8,819 nucleotides of DNA, taken from Candidatus Vampirococcus lugosii. GTDB taxonomy: Bacteria > Patescibacteriota > Gracilibacteria > Absconditabacterales > Absconditicoccaceae. Under the pieces are notes generated by a model, which saw only the letters and a program-made list of their open reading frames with translations, did no database searches and was not told the origin of the DNA. Of the stretch, positions 223 through 8,819 are shown piece after piece (within the stretch, counting starts at the first letter, position 1; every line of letters starts with the position of its first letter). Location of the stretch: the NCBI RefSeq assembly GCF_018420025.1, contig NZ_JAEDAM010000055.1:1-8819 (forward strand), written 5' to 3'. The position numbers and the translations under genes were made by a program.

Positions 223-525
223 ATGTCTTCTCAAAACTATGTTTTTAATGATGAGTTGGTTCTAAATGATTCCTGGGATGGCTTTGACTGGGAAGAGACC
301 TGGGATGATACGGTTGAAACTGTAAATGATTCCTGGGATGGCTTTGACTGGGAAGAGACCTGGGATGATACGGTTGAAACTGTAAATGATTCCTGGGATA
401 ATAATGATAGTTTTGACTGGAACGAAACTGTATATGATACAGTTGGAATAGTAACAGAAGTTTGGGATCAAGCATTCTTTTTTTGAATCCAAACTATGTT
501 CTATCTAAAAAAGTTTTTAGAATAA
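223..525 (+). CDS. Hypothetical hyper-acidic, Trp-rich repeat protein (100 aa under table 25)
   Basis: ATG 223 is preceded by AAGGTGA (211-217), the only clear Shine-Dalgarno in the window. An in-frame GTG at 214 is an alternative start. The frame runs through TGA 484-486 (Gly in table 25) to TAA 523-525 and is followed by a hairpin plus T-run. My count is 17 D and 10 E against 2 K, with 9 W. The unit NDSWDGFDWEETWDDTVETV occurs twice exactly, then once as a diverged copy. I recognise no family. Confidence 0.6.
263..453 (+). repeat. 60-bp tandem repeat inside the small ORF (2.3 exact copies plus a degenerate third copy)
   Basis: Positions 263-339 are identical to 323-399 at a 60-nt offset. 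The third copy (385-453) diverges and is 9 nt longer. The period is a multiple of 3 and in frame, giving a 20-aa protein repeat. Confidence 0.95.
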
Positions 526-584: not shown

Positions 585-971
585 TTAATAAATTAGTTCT
601 CTTTCATCTTTTGATAATTTTTCTATATATATATTTAAATATTCTTTGGATATATATTCTTTTATAAATTTTGGCCATTCTATACATATATATTCATATT
701 CATCAATTTTATCAAAAATTCACATTTCATAAATTTGTTCTATAGATTCTAATCTATACATATCTATATGTAATAATTTTTTGTATTCATTTATATATGT
801 ATATGTTGGACTTTGAATTATATTTTCAGAAATTCAAATTCATTTTGCAAATCATTTAACAAAATTTGTTTTTCCAACTCATAATTCTCAATTTAATAAT
901 ATTTTTTTATATCATTTTTGAGCTATTTTTTCAGCAAATATTTGCATATCTTCACTTGATTTTATTATCAT
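585..971 (-). CDS. tsaE: tRNA threonylcarbamoyladenosine (t6A) biosynthesis ATPase TsaE (YjeE family), 128 aa
   Basis: I checked the table-25 translation triplet by triplet: MIIKSSEDMQIFAEKIAQKGYKKILLNGELGVGKTNFVKGFAKGIGISENIIQSPTYTYINEYKKLLHIDMYRLESIEQIYEMGIFDKIDEYEYICIEWPKF... It carries the Walker A motif GELGVGKT plus the SPTY, DMYRL and IEWP motifs typical of TsaE. There are 7 in-frame TGA, including two Walker A glycines. TAA stops the frame at 585-587, and another TAA sits immediately upstream of the ATG. Confidence 0.85.
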
Positions 972-1357
972 TTATCTTTATAAGAATATATAAAATTAAT
1001 TATATATATTTAATATATTTCAAAAATCAATGTATAATATATTGCTTTATTATTTTATTTTTATAAATTTATTATGATTTATTCTATTTACTTGGGATAA
1101 ATATAAATCTATAAAAAAACAAAATCGTATAAGTGAAAAAAGACTTTTATTATTAGCACTGATATGATGATTTATATGACAATTAATATCTATGATATTA
1201 TTTAATCATAAAACAAGAAAAACTTCTTTTCAAATAAAACTTTTTTTAATAGTTTTATTATGGATTATTTCTATAATAATTTTCTTATATTTTGATTTTG
1301 AATATTAAAAAAATATTATTATAATAATTTATTTAAAAATAAATAATTATTTTAAAT

Positions 1358-3778
1358 ATGGAAAAAAAAATAAATAAATTTTATGAAACAGATGAAATTT
1401 GGGAAGATATAATACAAATGAATGAAAATATATATGAAACATTAATAGATGATGAAGAATATATAAAAATATTATCAAGTATGAAAAATGATTTTTCTTA
1501 TATTTTATTAGATATTATAAAAAATATATATTCAATTGATGAATTTAATAAATTATCTAATGATGATCTGTTTATATATTTTATAAAAAATACAAAAGAA
1601 AAAAATTTAAAAAATATAGTTGATTTATATAATATTACAAGTTGAGAAGAATTTGAATTAATATATAACAATGAATTGCTTAGGAATTTATTAGAATTTG
1701 CAAAAGAAGAAAATTTGGAATTTATTATAAGAATATTTAATAATGTTGAAGATTTTCAAAAAATATATAAAAATACTTATATGGTAAATGTTTTGAAAAA
1801 CTCAAAAGAAGAAAATTTTAGATATGTAATAAAATTATATGAATTAGAACTATTACAAAATCCTGATAATTTTTATGTTTCTAATAATGTTTTGAATATA
1901 TTAAAATATTCAGATTTACACAAATTAAAATATATTATAGATTTATGTAATAATTCACAAGATTTTGAAAATATTTGTAATAATGAAAATCTTATGGAAG
2001 TTTTAAATTTATGAAAAGAAGAAAATATTGAATTATTAATTAATTTATTTGATAATTTGGAAGAACTTAATTATTATTTAAATAATAGAAAAATAGTTAG
2101 AATATTAATTTTTTGAAAGAAAAATAATATTAAATTAATAATGAATTTATCTAATTCTTTGCAAGAATTTAGCGAAATTTGTAAAAATATAAATATATTG
2201 GATATAATGCAATATACAAAAGAAGAATATTTGGAATATATTATATATTTGTATAATATCAAAAATATAAATGAACTTGAAGATGTATTTGATAATGAAA
2301 TTATATTTGATATATGAGAAATAGCTCAAGCTGAAAATATTAATTTTTTAAATCAATATAGAAATCATAATTTAAGTTATAATATAAATAATTATATCAA
2401 AAAAAGAATTTTGGTTTCTCAAAATAATAGTCAAAAATTTTTTACAAAAAATTTTCCAAAATATAAAAATTTTTCAAAATTATTTGAATATTATATAAAT
2501 AATAAACAAAAATCTTTTTTTGATCTTTTGGAAAAAATAAAATTTGTAGAAGAATATTGATTAAATATTAATATAGATAAATTTGAAATTATTGAAAATT
2601 TTGAAAATTATTGAAATATAGATTTTGAAGAATTAAGAAAAAATTTTGAAAAAATAATTGATCTTAATCAGGAAAAACAAAAAAATAAACTTTTGAGAAA
2701 GTTTGATAATTTTGTTAAATCTAAAAATTTTGATTGATTGAAAAATTTTTTGGCTGAAAATTTAATAAAATATTTTGATAGAATTTATGATAAAAAATTA
2801 AAAATAAGAATAATAAATGAACTTAGAAAAAATTTGTGATGAAATATAAATATTTGAAATATTAAAAAATATAAAATAAATGATTTTGATTTTATTGAAG
2901 CATACAAAATGTCTATTAATCCAGCTTATAATAAAGATCAAATAAATAGTTTATTATATAATTATTTGCTTTGAAAATTTGAAAATATACAAGACTGTAA
3001 ACAGTATGATACAGAAAATAATAATAAATGGTTGGCAGAAAATTTAACAGAAGAACAACAAAAAATATGGTTGTCATCAAATAGGGAAGAGATAAGTCTT
3101 GATCAAGAAATTAATGATAAATCAATAAATAATTTAAATAATTTAATAGAAGAAAATTACAATAATTGTATTAATATAATAAATTTAATAAATGAACTTT
3201 GATTTAATTTCAAAACTAATTTTGATAAATATTGACAATTATTGGAATATTACAATATACATATAAAAAATTGTAATAAAGATATAGAAAAAAGAGATAA
3301 ACAAAATTTGACACAAGATTTGGAAAATCAAATTAATTTGATAAAAAAATTATTTAAAGAAAAAAAATGAAAAAATAGCAAAAAAATAATAATAGAAAAA
3401 GAATTAAATCCTATCAAATGTTTGATGATGTGAAATGTAGTAGATTGAAGTTGTATGTCATTTTATTTTCATGAATCAAATTATTATTCATGTATATCAA
3501 ATACTATAGATGTAAATAAATGAATTTTTTATATAAAAAATGAAAAATGAAATATTTTGTGAAGATGTATAATAACAATATGAAATGATAAAAAAATAAG
3601 TAGATATAAAATGTGATATTCGTCAAATATAAATGAACCTATAGATAAATATTTTGATGATTATACTATAAAATTATCAAAAAAAATGTGATTAAAATTA
3701 AATTGAGATCAAAATAAAGTTGAAAATATAGAATGTGATAAATGGTACAAAGATTGAGTAAAAAAAATTATAGAATAA
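1358..3778 (+). CDS. Large hypothetical protein (806 aa): N-terminal tandem helical repeats, Asn/Lys-rich middle, Gly/Cys-bearing C-terminal domain
   Basis: A single frame runs from ATG 1358 to TAA 3776-3778. I checked it line by line and found no TAA/TAG and 24 in-frame TGA. It joins track ORFs 1358-1645 and 1676-2014, which share this frame, and continues 1.7 kb further. An 806-codon frame free of TAA/TAG is very unlikely by chance in DNA this AT-rich. I recognise no family. Confidence 0.85.
1595..2326 (+). repeat. Seven tandem 34-36-aa protein repeats (diverged at DNA level) within the 806-aa CDS
   Basis: The units are KEKNLKNIVDLYNITSGEEFELIYNNELLRNLLEFA / KEENLEFIIRIFNNVEDFQKIYKNTYMVNVLKNS / KEENFRYVIKLYELELLQNPDNFYVSNNVLNILKYS / DLHKLKYIIDLCNNSQDFENICNNENLMEVLNLG / KEENIELLINLFDNLEELNYYLNNRKIVRILIFG / KKNNIKLIMNLSNSLQEFSEICKNINILDIMQYT / KEEYLEYIIYLYNIKNINELEDVFDNEIIFDIGEIA. 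They total 244 aa, which matches 732 nt. The shared pattern is KEEN-h-x-h-h-x-L, a turn, then a second helix-like segment. Confidence 0.6.
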
Positions 3779-3980
3779 ATAGTATTATTGCTTATTTAAT
3801 TAAAGAAATTATGTAAAAATTTTGCTTTTTTTATTTAGTATTTTTTAAGTGTACAAATTTAGTATAAATAGTATTGAAATTTTTTTAGTTATTTACTAAA
3901 AATTTATTGAAATATTCATAAAGGAAAGTTTTGAGTCCAAATATATTGTAAATAATCTATATGTAGATTAATATTTTGTT

Positions 3981-4008
3981 TTGTAAAGTAGATAATATAA
4001 TATATAAT
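3981..4008 (+). promoter_or_regulatory. Candidate sigma70-type promoter upstream of trxB (TTGTAA, 16-nt spacer, TATAAT)
   Basis: TTGTAA lies at 3981-3986 and a consensus TATAAT at 4003-4008, about 80 nt upstream of ATG 4088. The AT-rich background makes chance matches likely. Confidence 0.25.
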
Positions 4009-4087
4009 TATTTACACTATATATAGTACAATGTAATTTAATTTGTATTATATGTTTAGTATTTTTAAAAAATTAAATTAAACAAAT

Positions 4088-5017
<930 letters not shown>

Positions 5018-5034
5018 AATAAAATATAATATAA

Positions 5035-5108
5035 TATAGACTAGTGTTGTTTACAAAAATAAAAATTTTATCTATTATATTTTTTTGTGTAAACAATGCT
5101 AGTCTATA
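5035..5108. terminator. Long inverted repeat (about 21-bp stem) between convergent trxB and the 129-aa ORF; probable terminator, possibly bidirectional
   Basis: The arm at 5035-5055 (TATAGACTAGTGTTGTTTACA) pairs with 5088-5108 (TGTAAACAATGCTAGTCTATA). Two positions are G-U wobbles on the + RNA and C-A mismatches on the - RNA. The A-run and T-run inside the loop can extend the pairing. It lies 18 nt after the trxB stop and 16 nt after the stop of the minus-strand ORF. Confidence 0.55.
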
Positions 5109-5123
5109 ATTACATTTAATATT

Positions 5124-5513
5124 TTAAGTTATATTTTTCCAATCAATAATTTCATTATTATTTTTAATTTTCCAATTATATAAATAAATATTAACTTTTT
5201 TATTTTGTAAATAAATTTTTGTCCTTTTATATCTAAAAAGATATACTGATTCTATAAATCAAAGCAATATTATTAAATAATAATATTTAAAAATTGATAA
5301 TTTATAATTATTTATTTCAGCAATTATATAATTTTTTGATTTTGATTTATTTCTAATTAATCACGGACTTATTCATAAATTGTACATTTTGTATCATTCA
5401 AGATTTATTTTTTTGGATAAATAACTTTTTGGTAATAGTTTTGAATATCTCTCTCATTCTCTCAAATTTCAATAATATATAAACCAATAATCTTTTTTTT
5501 TAAATAATTTCAT
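5124..5513 (-). CDS. Hypothetical protein, 129 aa, one hydrophobic segment (possible membrane anchor)
   Basis: The translation, checked triplet by triplet, is MKLFKKKDYWFIYYGNLREGERYSKLLPKSYLSKKINLEGYKMYNLGISPGLIRNKSKSKNYIIAEINNYKLSIFKYYYLIILLGFIESVYLFRYKRTKIYLQNKKVNIYLYNWKIKNNNEIIDWKNIT. It has 6 in-frame TGA, a TAA stop at 5124-5126 and an in-frame stop 6 codons upstream of the ATG. It is absent from the standard-code track. I recognise no family. Support comes from ORF length in AT-rich DNA and host-like codon usage. Confidence 0.6.
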
Positions 5514-6997: not shown

Positions 6998-8578
6998 ATG
7001 AAAAAAATATTATTTATATTTATTGTTATTTTGTTTTGAACAATATGAAAATCTTTTGCAAATTTGGTTGATGTTGTAGAAGAAAAACAAAATAAATTAA
7101 CTTCATCAGTATCTAATAAATATCAAAATTTACAAAATCTATATGAAAATAAAATAAATAAATTAAGTGAAAAAGAATATTATGATATATTAATAGAACT
7201 TGAACAAATAGATTTTTCTGAAATTAAAAAAGAAAATCTTGATAGATATTTTGAAATAGAAGATAAAATAATTAAAGATTTTAATTCTTTCAAAAATAGA
7301 AATAGAAATTTATCTAGAGATTTATCTTTTGATTTAATAGATCAAGATAGATTTGAAACACTTTTAGAATCTTTAAATAATGATATTGATTGAAATATTA
7401 AATATTATGAAGATTTAATAAATCAATATGAAAATAATTATAGTGATAAAATAAATAATTTGAAAAAAAAATATGAAAATATAGTTGACGAAAATCAAGA
7501 TAAAATTGATACTATATTTGATAATATATCAAAAATTGAAAATTTTATTGAAAAATTTAATAATCTCAAAAAAGATATAAATCATATAAATAAAGTTTAT
7601 ATGTGATCTTCATCTACTATTTATGATTTTATAGAAAGTTTTGAACAAGAAACCACTGCTTGACTACAAAAATCATTAAATTCTGAAATTGATAATTATT
7701 ACGATAAATATAAAAATTTTCAAAATTTTTTATGAGAAGATATTGAACAAAAAAAAGATTTATTATTGAAAGAATATAGTAAAGAAATTGATGAATATTT
7801 TCAATGATTGATTGATTGATTTTATTCAAAAAAAGATTATAATGATATTACTTCTTTTTATGAAGAAGTTATAAATAATTATTACAATGATGATGAAATT
7901 TCTTATTCATCAGTTATTGATTTAGATTTATCTTGATTGAATGATTATTCAAATTTAATTGATAAAAATTTGAATAGTATAGATACTAAATTAGACGAGT
8001 TTGATAATGCAAGTGATTATCAAGAGTTAAGAGAAAATTTAATTAATAGATCTGAAGATTTTTATGAATCAAAAAAAACTCAAAAAATAGAAGATATTAA
8101 AAAATATTTGGAAAAAGAACTTGAGTTTTTTATGTTAAAAAGTTCCAAAAATTTATCTATATATAATAATATAAATCAAGATATAGAAGAATTGGAAAAT
8201 TTGAGTACTTGAGAAAAGATAAATAAAATTGATAATATATTAAATTCTATAGAAAATAATCTTGATGAATTTATAGATTTGAATTTAAAAAAAGATTTGA
8301 AAGAACAAAAAAATAATCTATTAGTGAAACAAATAGATTATGAAATAATAAGTAGATGATTACTTAAATATGATATTCAATACTCAAATATATCAGAATT
8401 ATTGGAAAATATACTTAATAATATGTATCAAGAATATTGAGATAAAGAAGATTTTGTGATAAAAATAGAAACTGCTATAAATAATGCTAATGTTTTATTA
8501 CAACAAAATGATTTATGAAAATGAAATAAATATTTGTTGTTTAGAATAAAACAAGCTATGATTAAGTTTTTGAATTAA
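6998..8578 (+). CDS. Secreted/surface hypothetical protein, 526 aa, Sec-type signal peptide followed by a long Asn/Lys/Glu/Asp/Ile-rich predicted coiled coil
   Basis: The frame runs from ATG 6998 to the tandem TAA TAA at 8576-8581, with 14 in-frame TGA. It joins track ORFs 7064-7393 and 7937-8212, which share this frame. The N-terminus MKKILFIFIVILFGTIGKSFA|NLVDV has a KK n-region, a hydrophobic core and an S-F-A cleavage-type c-region. The rest is charged, heptad-like and low in complexity. I recognise no family. Confidence 0.8.
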
Positions 8579-8596: not shown

Positions 8597-8819
8597 ATGT
8601 TTTCTTATAAAAATTATTCCAAAAAATGATTTACATTGATAGAAATGGTTTTAGTTACAATTATTTTGTCTTTGGTGTTTTTAGTAATAATATCTACATA
8701 TTTGGGGATGATAAGTTCTAGAGTACAAATACAAGCTAGACAAACTCTTACTGAAAATACATATTTTATGCTAGAGAGATTAAATGCTGTAGTATCAGAT
8801 TTTACTATAGATTATGAAG
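8597..8819 (+). CDS. Prepilin-type N-terminal cleavage/methylation domain protein (type IV pilin or pseudopilin-like), 3'-truncated by the window edge
   Basis: The translation is MFSYKNYSKKG|FTLIEMVLVTIILSLVFLVIISTYLGMISSRVQIQARQTLTENTYFMLERLNAVVSDFTIDYE. It has the class III signal peptide G/FTLIE with Glu5 and a hydrophobic alpha1-N helix. The cleavage-site Gly is the TGA at 8627-8629. The gene starts 18 nt after the upstream gene's first stop codon and runs off the window. Confidence 0.85.

What the first reader, a model, noticed from the sequence alone, without database searches (positions are those of the whole stretch)
3404..3778. Distinct C-terminal globular domain of the 806-aa protein with no family I can name
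The last 120 aa or so change character abruptly from Asn/Lys-rich helical sequence. They read LNPIKCLMMGNVVDGSCMSFYFHESNYYSCISNTIDVNKGIFYIKNEKGNILGRCIITIGNDKKISRYKMGYSSNINEPIDKYFDDYTIKLSKKMGLKLNGDQNKVENIECDKWYKDGVKKIIE. This stretch holds 10 of the protein's 24 UGA-Gly codons and 5 Cys, and it has beta-strand-like alternating patterns. The motifs D-G-S-C-M and G-R-C-I could be catalytic or metal-binding. I have only a vague recollection of similar S-C-M-containing domains in phage and conjugative-element proteins, and I cannot name or verify a family. A scaffold of repeats plus a small Cys-bearing effector-like domain is an architecture common in host-interaction and conflict proteins.
Basis: inference. 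Interest (0 to 1): 0.65.

Follow-up and report, generated by a model that had tools for sequence, protein, structure and literature searches.

The report
Uncharacterised GNAT-like domain with invariant cysteine
The last 125 residues of this 806-residue protein form a real, conserved domain with an acetyltransferase-like (GNAT-like) fold and one invariant cysteine, and it defines a widespread, unannotated protein family in bacteria and archaea whose biochemical function is still unknown.

Summary
Under genetic code 25 the ORF at 1358-3778 encodes 806 aa with 24 TGA-Gly codons. Ten of these, plus 5 Cys, lie in the last 124 residues.

The domain spans aa 674-800. It recurs in at least 173 protein clusters and at least 120 GTDB species genomes, from CPR bacteria and DPANN archaea to Planctomycetota, Myxococcota and a cultured Firmicute.

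AlphaFold2 on a 56%-identical normal-code homologue gives a confident model (pLDDT 92). All top-50 PDB fold matches are GNAT acyltransferases.

Pfam, NCBIfam, PHROGs, PADLOC and PDB sequence searches find nothing. The canonical CoA-binding motif A is absent.

Only one Cys is invariant: C699 in the motif G-S-C-[L/M]. G692, N715, N720, K721, R736, W796 and D799 are also invariant or nearly so. The other four Cys vary, so a metal-binding Cys cluster is excluded.

The about 330 helical residues upstream are co-conserved and fold with the domain as one unit.

I found no link to phages, plasmids or defence systems, and no conserved gene neighbours.

My best reading is a cysteine-dependent transferase or hydrolase on a GNAT-like scaffold. 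The fold and conservation are shown; the chemistry is inferred.

The parts
1358..3778 (+). Whole gene: 806 codons plus a TAA stop under genetic code 25. It has 24 TGA-Gly codons, no GGN codons, and is 15.6% GC.
   Evidence: A 2.4-kb ORF free of TAA and TAG in 16%-GC DNA. The database copy is P0001.
1529..2263 (+). Lineage-specific N-terminal region (aa 58-302). It holds seven tandem helical repeats of about 34-35 residues, of the form ..[ED][ED]F..I..N..L..VL...KEEN[IL]..II.L[FY]N..
   Evidence: Autocorrelation peaks at offsets of 34 and 70 residues exceed every one of 200 shuffles. The units align in register. Few homologues share this region.
2375..3376 (+). Conserved all-helical module (aa about 340-673) that accompanies the terminal domain in most family members. 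It includes the near-invariant residues N555 (nt 3020-3022) and D654 (nt 3317-3319).
   Evidence: HMM coverage of about 70-105 of 150 homologues. The AF2 module model has pLDDT 88 and pTM 0.81. The window is 48% identical to the modelled homologue. This part has no PDB fold match.
3377..3757 (+). GNAT-like alpha/beta domain (aa 674-800). Element order: b1 676-681, a1 685-688, Cys loop 689-710, a2 711-717, b2 721-727, b3 733-741, b4 746-750, a3 762-777, then the C-terminal WYxD segment.
   Evidence: Present in all 150 listed homologues and all 80 GTDB loci. AF2 pLDDT 92.2. All top-50 Foldseek PDB hits are GNAT, and BFVD agrees.
3401..3412 (+). E682-L-N-P685, at the end of strand b1 and the N-cap of helix a1. 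E and P are conserved.
   Evidence: E in 101/121 and P in 104/121 normal-code rows. E in 56/80 and P in 67/80 GTDB members.
3428..3457 (+). Hallmark loop M691-G-N-V-V-D-G-S-C699-M700. G692 (a TGA codon) and C699 (TGT at 3452-3454) are invariant. Position 698 is Ser or Thr.
   Evidence: G in 115/116 and C in 115/116 ungapped normal-code rows. G31 and C38 are invariant in A2. In recoded rows C is 27/28.
3479..3520 (+). N708...S711...N715..D718.N720-K721: helix a2 and its junction with strand b2, carrying conserved polar residues.
   Evidence: N708 93/121, S711 96/121, N715 105/121, N720 117/121 and K721 116/121. N708 is 74/80 in the GTDB members, where it was not fixed by the search pattern.
3560..3571 (+). 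G735-R736-C737-I738 on strand b3. R736 is invariant and position 738 is Leu or Ile. C737 is not conserved (V, K, C or L in the family).
   Evidence: R in 116/116 ungapped rows and 78/78 ungapped rows in the independent GTDB set. At position 737 the counts are V42, K20, C16 and L12.
3743..3757 (+). The conserved C-terminal motif W796-Y797-K-D799-G800.
   Evidence: W 105, Y 99 and D 97 of 121 rows, with the remainder mostly gaps. W 74/75, Y 70/75 and D 72/72 in the GTDB set.

Best explanation
The C-terminal about 125 residues (aa 674-800) are the signature domain of a large, unannotated family of cytoplasmic proteins of about 500-1,600 residues. The family occurs across Bacteria and Archaea.

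Shown:
- The domain has a GNAT-like (acyl-CoA N-acyltransferase-like) alpha/beta fold.
- It lacks the canonical CoA pyrophosphate-binding motif A.
- Its conservation sits on the N-terminal arm and neighbouring strands: G692 and C699 in the a1-a2 loop, N715, N720 and K721 at the a2/b2 junction, R736 on b3, and W796, Y797 and D799 at the C-terminus.
- In most members it is fused to a co-conserved, mostly basic helical module of about 330 residues. The two fold together as one unit.

Inferred:
- The domain is an enzyme. The invariant, His-independent Cys699 would act as a nucleophile, forming a thioester or covalent intermediate, or performing acyl/aminoacyl transfer or amide hydrolysis.
- Its thiolate would be tuned by R736 and/or K721.
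- N715, N720, K721 and R736 would bind an anionic part of the donor or substrate, such as a phosphate or carboxylate.
- The helical module would be the substrate-recognition platform.
- The lineage-specific N-terminal repeats would mediate protein-protein contacts.
For: - The family is real and broad. The exhaustive HMMER search gave 173 cluster representatives at E<=1e-3 and 77 at E<=1e-10. The domain HMM matches all 150 listed.
- A DNA pattern for the motif found at least 120 stretches in GTDB species genomes. All 80 loci returned were verified with the HMM at E<=1e-15.
- Taxa include Absconditicoccus, Peregrinibacteria, Kaiserbacteria, Woese- and Nanoarchaeota, Planctomycetota, Myxococcota, Verrucomicrobiota, Chloroflexota and Pseudobacteroides cellulosolvens.
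- Fold: the AF2 domain model has pLDDT 92.2 and pTM 0.86. All top-50 Foldseek PDB hits are GNAT enzymes, with probability about 1.0 and TM 0.45-0.55. BFVD gives phage GNATs. The module model has pLDDT 88.1 and pTM 0.81.
- Conservation: G, C and R are invariant, and E, P, M, L, N, N-K, L, W, Y and D are at least 90% conserved in 79 sequences at 26-45% identity to the first sequence. R736, W796 and D799 were confirmed in an independent set.
- The window keeps these positions unchanged apart from two conservative substitutions (M for L at 700, I for L at 738). It also reads Gly at 753, an alignment-register ambiguity (YY versus -Y), and keeps Tyr at 754.
- There is no second conserved Cys or His.
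- The helical module has median pI 8.9 against 6.1 for the domain.
- tRNA-dependent GNAT-fold transferases (FemX, L-PGS) are among the fold hits. To my knowledge these also lack motif A.
Against: - No experiment bears on any member. No sequence-level link to any characterised enzyme was found.
- The fold match is modest: best PDB E about 1e-3, rmsd about 5 A.
- The most conserved GNAT element, motif A in the b4-a3 loop, is the least conserved part here. The GNAT resemblance therefore says little about chemistry.
- I could not see model coordinates, so clustering of the invariant residues in space is inferred from topology only.
- An invariant Cys could instead be a redox or regulatory site.
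- E682 is only 70% conserved in the GTDB set.
Confidence: 0.5

Rival explanations
1. The domain is a non-catalytic GNAT-like module, in effect a pseudo-enzyme. It binds a ligand, a protein or a nucleic acid. The invariant Cys serves as a redox or ligand sensor or a structural residue. The protein acts as a scaffold or regulator.
For: - The canonical GNAT cofactor motif is absent.
- Most of the protein is made of helical modules and repeats typical of scaffolds.
- No operon partners point to a pathway.
- To my knowledge, the GNAT-like fold superfamily includes non-enzymatic binders.
Against: Near-absolute invariance of a lone Cys together with Gly, Arg and Asn-Lys, across bacteria and archaea at about 30% overall identity, is more typical of an active site than of a binding surface. 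Structural Cys residues are usually replaceable by Ser, Ala or Val, yet here 115 of 116 rows keep Cys.
Confidence: 0.25
2. The domain is a divergent PcfJ-like domain (PF14284), which is the phage and conjugative-element family the first reader half-remembered. On this reading the protein would be a mobile-element or conflict effector.
For: - PcfJ of pCF10 shows the same local order of elements: a strand, a short helix ending in G, then x4-5 and [H/S]C[V/L], a helix, and a three-strand meander.
- The best, though non-significant, hhalign path aligns exactly that motif.
- An rve transposase lies next to two homologues.
Against: - The Pfam PcfJ model scores 149 bits on genuine PcfJ, but hits none of 79 family members even at E<=10, and does not hit the window protein.
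- hhalign gives probability 0.2% against one PcfJ sequence and against a 7-sequence PcfJ alignment.
- PcfJ has a His-Cys pair, whereas this family has Ser/Thr-Cys and no conserved His.
- The family was not found in IMG/VR; the one pattern hit is a chance match. It was not found in phage genomes or plasmids either. There were no PADLOC or PHROG hits.
- The window context is housekeeping: TsaE, TrxB, ClpP, LemA.
Confidence: 0.07
3. The domain is a canonical acetyl/acyl-CoA-dependent GNAT N-acyltransferase that has simply diverged beyond sequence recognition. The Cys would be incidental.
For: All top fold matches are CoA-dependent GNATs. The complete b1-a1-a2-b2-b3-b4-a3-b5 order is present.
Against: - No Q/R-x-x-G-x-G/A motif follows b4, and that loop is variable in both length and sequence.
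- There are no hits to any Pfam GNAT-clan model in 79 members at E<=10.
- Helix a4 is missing.
- The strongest conservation lies outside the canonical cofactor site.
Confidence: 0.13
4. The domain is a Cys-rich metal-binding (zinc or iron-sulfur) module, as the five cysteines suggested.
For: There are five Cys in 124 residues of the window protein, an enrichment with p=0.017.
Against: Four of the five Cys are replaced by V, I, A, T, S or K in most homologues. No His is conserved. Only C699 is invariant.
Confidence: 0.02

Closest known systems
GNAT / acyl-CoA N-acyltransferase-like fold superfamily (for example aminoglycoside acetyltransferase 5f49, GCN5 1ygh, SpeG 4jjx)
   Same: The overall alpha/beta topology (b1-a1-a2-b2-b3-b4-a3-b5) matches. 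All top-50 Foldseek PDB hits belong to this superfamily, with probability about 1.0 and TM up to 0.55.
   Different: - No sequence-profile similarity.
- No motif A (Q/RxxGxG/A).
- No helix a4.
- The conserved residues lie on the a1-a2 loop, a2, b2 and b3 rather than on b4-a3 and b5.
- An invariant Cys, which typical GNATs do not have.
- Fusion to a 330-residue helical module that has no PDB counterpart.
tRNA-dependent GNAT-fold aminoacyl transferases (FemX 1xe4/7z6a, lysyl-phosphatidylglycerol synthase 4v36)
   Same: They appear among the fold hits for both the domain and the whole module. To my knowledge these enzymes also work without the CoA motif and use a polyanionic donor. That would fit the conserved Arg, Lys and Asn residues and the basic helical module.
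   Different: To my knowledge those enzymes contain two GNAT-like lobes and do not use a catalytic Cys. No sequence similarity was found. The analogy is an inference and has not been tested.
PcfJ-like domain (Pfam PF14284) of conjugative plasmids and phages
   Same: A similar local arrangement around a conserved Cys: a strand, a short helix ending in Gly, 4-5 residues, then Cys and a hydrophobic residue, then a helix and a beta-meander. It also sits at the C-terminus of a longer helical protein.
   Different: - No HMM or profile-profile signal.
- PcfJ has His-Cys and Thr-x-Glu motifs that are absent here.
- This family has N-K, R and WYxD motifs that are absent in PcfJ.
- PcfJ is common in phages (449 phage records), whereas this family is absent from them.

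Membership tests
GNAT (acyl-CoA N-acyltransferase) superfamily | Characteristic mixed alpha/beta fold, b1-a1-a2-b2-b3-b4-a3-b5-(a4)-b6 | tested here: met
   The AF2 model has pLDDT 92.2. Foldseek top-50 PDB hits are all GNAT, with probability about 1.0 and TM 0.45-0.55. BFVD agrees. Helix a4 is missing. The model is of a homologue that is 56% identical.
GNAT (acyl-CoA N-acyltransferase) superfamily | Motif A, Q/R-x-x-G-x-G/A, in the b4-a3 loop, which binds the CoA pyrophosphate | tested here: not met
   The column-by-column family alignment shows no conserved Gly or Arg between b4 (aa 746-750) and a3 (aa 762-777). The loop varies in length.
GNAT (acyl-CoA N-acyltransferase) superfamily | Match to a Pfam or NCBIfam GNAT-clan profile | tested here: not met
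   No GNAT model hit for the window protein. None for 79 family members at E<=10. None for 16 full-length homologues.
GNAT (acyl-CoA N-acyltransferase) superfamily | Binds acyl-CoA and transfers the acyl group to an amine | not testable with these tools
   This needs biochemistry or a co-structure.
PcfJ-like (PF14284) | Match to the PF14284 profile | tested here: not met
   The positive control, pCF10 PcfJ, scores 148.9 bits. The window protein and the 79 family members give no hit at E<=10.
PcfJ-like (PF14284) | Profile-profile similarity to PcfJ sequences | tested here: not met
   hhalign probability is 0.2% against one PcfJ sequence and against a 7-sequence PcfJ alignment. That PcfJ alignment was small.
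PcfJ-like (PF14284) | E-G-x-x-[LM]-x-H-C-[VL] motif with a His-Cys pair | tested here: not met
   This family has M-G-x4-5-[ST]-C-L. No His is conserved anywhere in the domain.
PcfJ-like (PF14284) | Residence on phages or conjugative elements | tested here: not met
   No verified family member in IMG/VR, in phage genomes or in plasmids. Neighbourhoods are chromosomal and housekeeping.
Cys-cluster metal-binding domain | Three or four conserved Cys or His ligands | tested here: not met
   Only C699 is conserved. C688, C712, C737 and C793 vary, and no His is conserved.
Genetic code 25 (TGA = Gly) lineage (Absconditabacteria / Gracilibacteria) | In-frame TGA at positions that are conserved Gly in normal-code homologues | tested here: met
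   At G692, normal-code rows have G in 115 of 116, and recoded rows have TGA. In the window's TrxB, Gly residues of the GxGxxG motif are TGA. The closest named homologue is from Candidatus Absconditicoccus praedator.

The most novel reading that the evidence does not exclude
This is a new, widespread family of His-independent, cysteine-dependent enzymes built on a GNAT-like scaffold. The active site has moved to the a1-a2 loop, b2 and b3 (Cys699, Lys721, Arg736, Asn720). The enzyme would use a polyanionic donor or substrate, such as an aminoacyl-tRNA, a nucleotide-linked group or a phospholipid, held by the basic helical module. It is conserved from genome-reduced CPR and DPANN symbionts to Planctomycetota and Myxococcota, so it may perform a general but so far unrecognised cellular modification.
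Probability: 0.3. Interest if true: 0.75.

Novelty: new variant of a known kind. Interest (0 to 1): 0.5.

Why it matters
Proteins of 500-1,600 residues that occur in hundreds of bacterial and archaeal lineages, including minimal-genome CPR and DPANN organisms, yet have no Pfam or NCBIfam coverage, are uncommon. They are good places to find new biochemistry.

This work supplies several things:
- a domain definition;
- an HMM-quality alignment;
- two confident structure models;
- a short list of candidate catalytic residues (C699, K721, R736, N715, N720, D799);
- a specific DNA pattern that retrieves members;
- a cultured host (Pseudobacteroides cellulosolvens ATCC 35603) in which genetics and biochemistry are feasible.

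It also shows a practical problem. Public databases hold this protein, and about 28 recoded relatives, translated with the wrong code (Trp instead of Gly). That hides the relationship from word-based searches.

Tried and rejected
- Direct family scans of the whole protein and of the C-terminal piece against Pfam, NCBIfam, PHROGs, PADLOC and PDB sequences gave only noise.
- Word-indexed homologue searches found only the protein itself. The full-length query was swamped by low-complexity words. The domain alone found nothing. The family alignment found 10 short hypothetical proteins.
I therefore searched with the Trp-containing database version and modelled the normal-code homologue P0007 instead.
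- Ribosomal protein S8 matched the family profile over 45 residues (E=0.005; E=0.21 with the module profile). I rejected it. From my knowledge of S8 structures, the matching S8 segment is largely helix where this domain is predicted to be strands b3-b4. No S8 appears among the fold hits.
- DUF6253 (PF19766) hit one of 79 members at E=1.6e-4 and P0111 at E=0.003, below the curated cut-off. The hits are not consistent, so I did not pursue it.
- The PcfJ-like hypothesis was tested and not supported.
- Conserved gene neighbourhood: 8 database contexts and clustering of 1,017 flanking ORFs from 80 GTDB loci. The only recurrent clusters were antisense shadow ORFs of the family gene itself.
- Partner domains in the other architectures: Pfam, NCBIfam and PADLOC on 8 long homologues gave nothing, apart from one sub-threshold PbeC hit.
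- The fold search on the whole 474-residue module gave no match for the helical part.
- Literature searches on PcfJ and on catalytic cysteines in the GNAT fold returned nothing relevant. The search on Absconditicoccus praedator listed papers on the organism, which I did not read.
- An apparent loss of a conserved Tyr (G753 in the window) turned out to be an alignment-register ambiguity, YY versus -Y.
- No RNA genes or Rfam matches overlap the region. The promoter scan was uninformative in this AT-rich DNA.
Full report
**1. The observation**

The window is 19% GC and uses TGA as a sense codon. Translated with table 25, it carries nine ORFs. The target is at 1358-3778 (+). It has 806 codons, 24 of them TGA, and no GGN codon.

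They hold 10 of the 24 TGA codons and 5 of the 11 Cys. The shift in composition is significant:
- Gly: p=0.0015.
- Cys: p=0.017.
- N+K+E+L: 34% in the tail against 50% upstream.

Two lines of evidence show that TGA means Gly here:
- At the family column where 115 of 116 normal-code homologues have Gly (window G692), homologues from recoded lineages have TGA. Public databases translate it as Trp.
- In the window's own thioredoxin reductase, Gly residues of the GxGxxG motif are TGA.

**2. Is it a real domain?**

Sequence libraries do not name it. I tried Pfam, NCBIfam, PHROGs, PADLOC and PDB sequences.

The word-indexed protein search found only the protein itself, stored with 24 Trp in place of Gly. 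An exhaustive HMMER search with the C-terminal 148 residues found 173 cluster representatives at E<=1e-3 and 77 at E<=1e-10.

A family HMM places a domain of about 125 residues in all 150 listed proteins. In most, it ends 4-8 residues before the stop. In the window it spans aa 674-800.

**3. Conservation**

Among 121 normal-code rows, the near-invariant positions are E682, P685, M691, G692, S/T698, C699, L700, N708, S711, N715, N720, K721, R736, L738, W796, Y797 and D799. In a cleaned 79-sequence alignment at 26-45% identity to the first sequence, G, C and R are strictly invariant.

The other four Cys (688, 712, 737, 793) are replaced freely, and no His is conserved. So the D-G-S-C-M motif is the family hallmark. 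In G-R-C-I only the Gly and Arg matter. A Cys-cluster metal site is excluded.

Eighty further members came from GTDB genomes. They were retrieved with a DNA pattern that did not constrain R736, L738, N708 or the WYxD motif. They confirm these positions: R in 78/78 ungapped rows, W in 74/75 and D in 72/72.

The window protein keeps these residues unchanged, apart from two conservative substitutions (M700, I738). It also reads Gly at 753, but that column is a YY/-Y alignment-register ambiguity, and Tyr is kept at 754.

**4. Fold**

AlphaFold2 was run on the 79-sequence alignment. The first sequence was the domain of P0007, a hypothetical protein of Candidatus Absconditicoccus praedator that is 56% identical to the window domain. 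The model has pLDDT 92.2 and pTM 0.86. Its element order is b1-a1-long loop-a2-b2-b3-b4-a3-b5.

Foldseek against the PDB returned 686 matches at E<=10. All top-50 hits are GNAT-fold acyltransferases, including aminoglycoside acetyltransferases, GCN5/PCAF, SpeG, VipF and L-PGS. Probability is about 1.0, TM is 0.45-0.55, and the best E-value is about 1e-3. The viral structure library gave phage GNATs.

The match is consistent but modest, and there are real differences:
- Motif A (Q/RxxGxG/A after b4), which binds the CoA pyrophosphate and is usually the best-conserved GNAT element, is absent. That loop is the most variable part of this domain.
- Helix a4 is missing.
- Conservation sits on the a1-a2 loop, a2, and the start of b2 and b3.

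I therefore describe the domain as GNAT-like in fold. I do not file it as a GNAT acetyltransferase.

**5. The domain is part of a larger conserved unit**

Window residues of about 340-806 align with 70-105 of the 150 homologues. These include normal-code archaeal and bacterial proteins.

A 23-sequence alignment of this module gives a confident single-body model: 474 residues, pLDDT 88.1, pTM 0.81. It consists of about 330 residues of helices followed by the alpha/beta domain. The window is 48% identical to the modelled sequence.

The helical part has no fold match in the PDB and no sequence match there either. It is usually basic (median pI 8.9), whereas the terminal domain is near-neutral (median pI 6.1).

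Upstream of the module, the window protein has seven lineage-specific repeats of about 34-35 residues.

**6. Distribution and context**

Named sources include:
- CPR bacteria: Absconditicoccus, Peregrinibacteria, Kaiserbacteria.
- DPANN archaea: Woesearchaeota, Nanoarchaeota.
- Blastocatellia.

A degenerate DNA pattern for M-G-x4-5-[ST]-C-[LF]-x12-14-N-x2-[DE]-x-N-K-x-[VI] recovered 97 of 150 known members. All 80 returned loci are true members.

These loci come from Planctomycetota, Myxococcota, Verrucomicrobiota, Abditibacteriota, Armatimonadota, Chloroflexota, Obscuribacterales, Holophagales, Bdellovibrionales, Gammaproteobacteria, Bacteroidota, Methanosarcinales and the cultured Pseudobacteroides cellulosolvens ATCC 35603.

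Three architectures occur:
- The domain is terminal, as in the window.
- The domain is followed by about 180-220 residues.
- The domain lies mid-protein, with 500-750 residues after it.

None of eight long representatives has any Pfam or NCBIfam domain.

Gene neighbourhoods share nothing. This holds for eight database contexts and for clustering of 1,017 flanking ORFs. In the window, the gene sits among housekeeping genes: TsaE, a DUF1294-like membrane protein, TrxB, LemA and ClpP.

**7. The phage and conjugative-element idea**

I fetched genuine PcfJ from plasmid pCF10 and six phage homologues. PcfJ does show a similar local arrangement around a conserved Cys (…EGSILRHCVG…).

The relationship is still rejected:
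- The Pfam model hits none of 79 family members.
- hhalign gives probability 0.2%.
- The two families conserve different residue sets.

The family pattern has only one hit in IMG/VR, and it is a chance match. tblastn finds nothing in 50,697 phage records or 72,556 plasmids. PADLOC and PHROGs are negative. So I see no support for a mobile-element or conflict role.

**8. Mechanism**

Shown:
- The family is real.
- The fold is GNAT-like.
- A lone Cys is invariant, together with Gly, Asn-Lys, Arg and WYxD.
- The domain is physically coupled to a conserved basic helical module.
- There is no CoA motif, no metal-binding ligand set and no operon partners.

Inferred:
- The domain is catalytic and uses Cys699 as a nucleophile.
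- With no conserved His, activation by Arg736 or Lys721 is the likeliest arrangement. From general knowledge, Cys-Lys-acid triads in nitrilase-type and isochorismatase-type hydrolases, and Cys-Arg pairs in peroxiredoxins and sortases, are precedents.
- The conserved Asn, Lys and Arg would hold an anionic group of the donor or substrate.
- The absence of motif A, the basic helical module, and the presence of tRNA-dependent GNAT-fold transferases among the fold hits make a non-CoA, polyanionic donor an attractive possibility. This is untested.

The main rival is a non-catalytic binding module with a regulatory Cys.

**9. Verdict**

It is a distinct, unnamed domain with a functional S-C motif. 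It is not a metal-binding cluster and not a phage or conjugative-element effector.

The finding is a divergent, unannotated branch of the GNAT-like fold with its own conserved site, inside a widespread family of large proteins. It is a good candidate for new enzymology, but its function is not yet known.

Noticed in passing
window 1358-3778 and all ORFs: TGA has almost replaced GGN as the glycine codon. The target gene has 24 TGA and 0 GGN. Three other ORFs also have no GGN. Across nine ORFs the totals are 93 TGA and 22 GGN. GGN survives mainly in the higher-GC genes trxB and clpP. Window GC is 19%.
   Followed up: partly
window 263-399 (inside ORF 223-525, + strand): A perfect 60-bp tandem repeat, 2.3 copies, lies in a small ORF of 36% GC, about twice the window average. 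It encodes Trp/Asp-rich units (NDSWDGFDWEETWDDTVETV) with TGG-encoded Trp. Its function is unknown.
   Followed up: partly
window 5035-5108: A 32-nt inverted repeat, 84% complementary with a 10-nt loop, lies between the convergent trxB (ends at 5017, +) and ORF 5124-5513 (-). It is probably a bidirectional terminator. The simple terminator scan covered only 900-4200, so this stretch lay outside it.
   Followed up: partly
P0001 and about 28 recoded homologues in the public protein collection: The public collection stores this protein translated with code 4 (TGA=Trp), so 24 residues are wrong. The same applies to recoded relatives. This hides them from word-based searches and would distort structure prediction.
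   Followed up: yes
L002 7078-7866 and L006 5065-5922: An rve-family transposase gene lies directly upstream of the homologue in Candidatus Absconditicoccus praedator and in a 1.2-Mb contig that looks archaeal. The other contexts lack it.
   Followed up: no
window 6998-8578 and 8597-8819: A 526-residue protein with an N-terminal signal-like hydrophobic segment and coiled-coil-like, Asn/Lys/Glu-rich sequence is followed by a gene that starts with a type IV prepilin-like N-terminus (KKGFTLIEMV). This could be a pilus-related locus, as is common in CPR bacteria.
   Followed up: no
L019-L097 (GTDB loci): In Planctomycetota, Myxococcota and Gammaproteobacteria, proteins of about 1,100 residues carry a further conserved-length extension of about 180-220 residues after the domain. 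Some Myxococcota, Bacteroidota and Xenobia proteins carry 500-750 residues after it. These extra regions have no Pfam or NCBIfam match either.
   Followed up: partly
family profile A2 positions 45-89 (window aa about 706-750): A 45-residue local resemblance to the N-terminal part of archaeal ribosomal protein S8 (PDB 1i6u, E=0.005). I judged it to be chance, because the predicted secondary structure differs and no S8 appears among the fold hits.
   Followed up: partly
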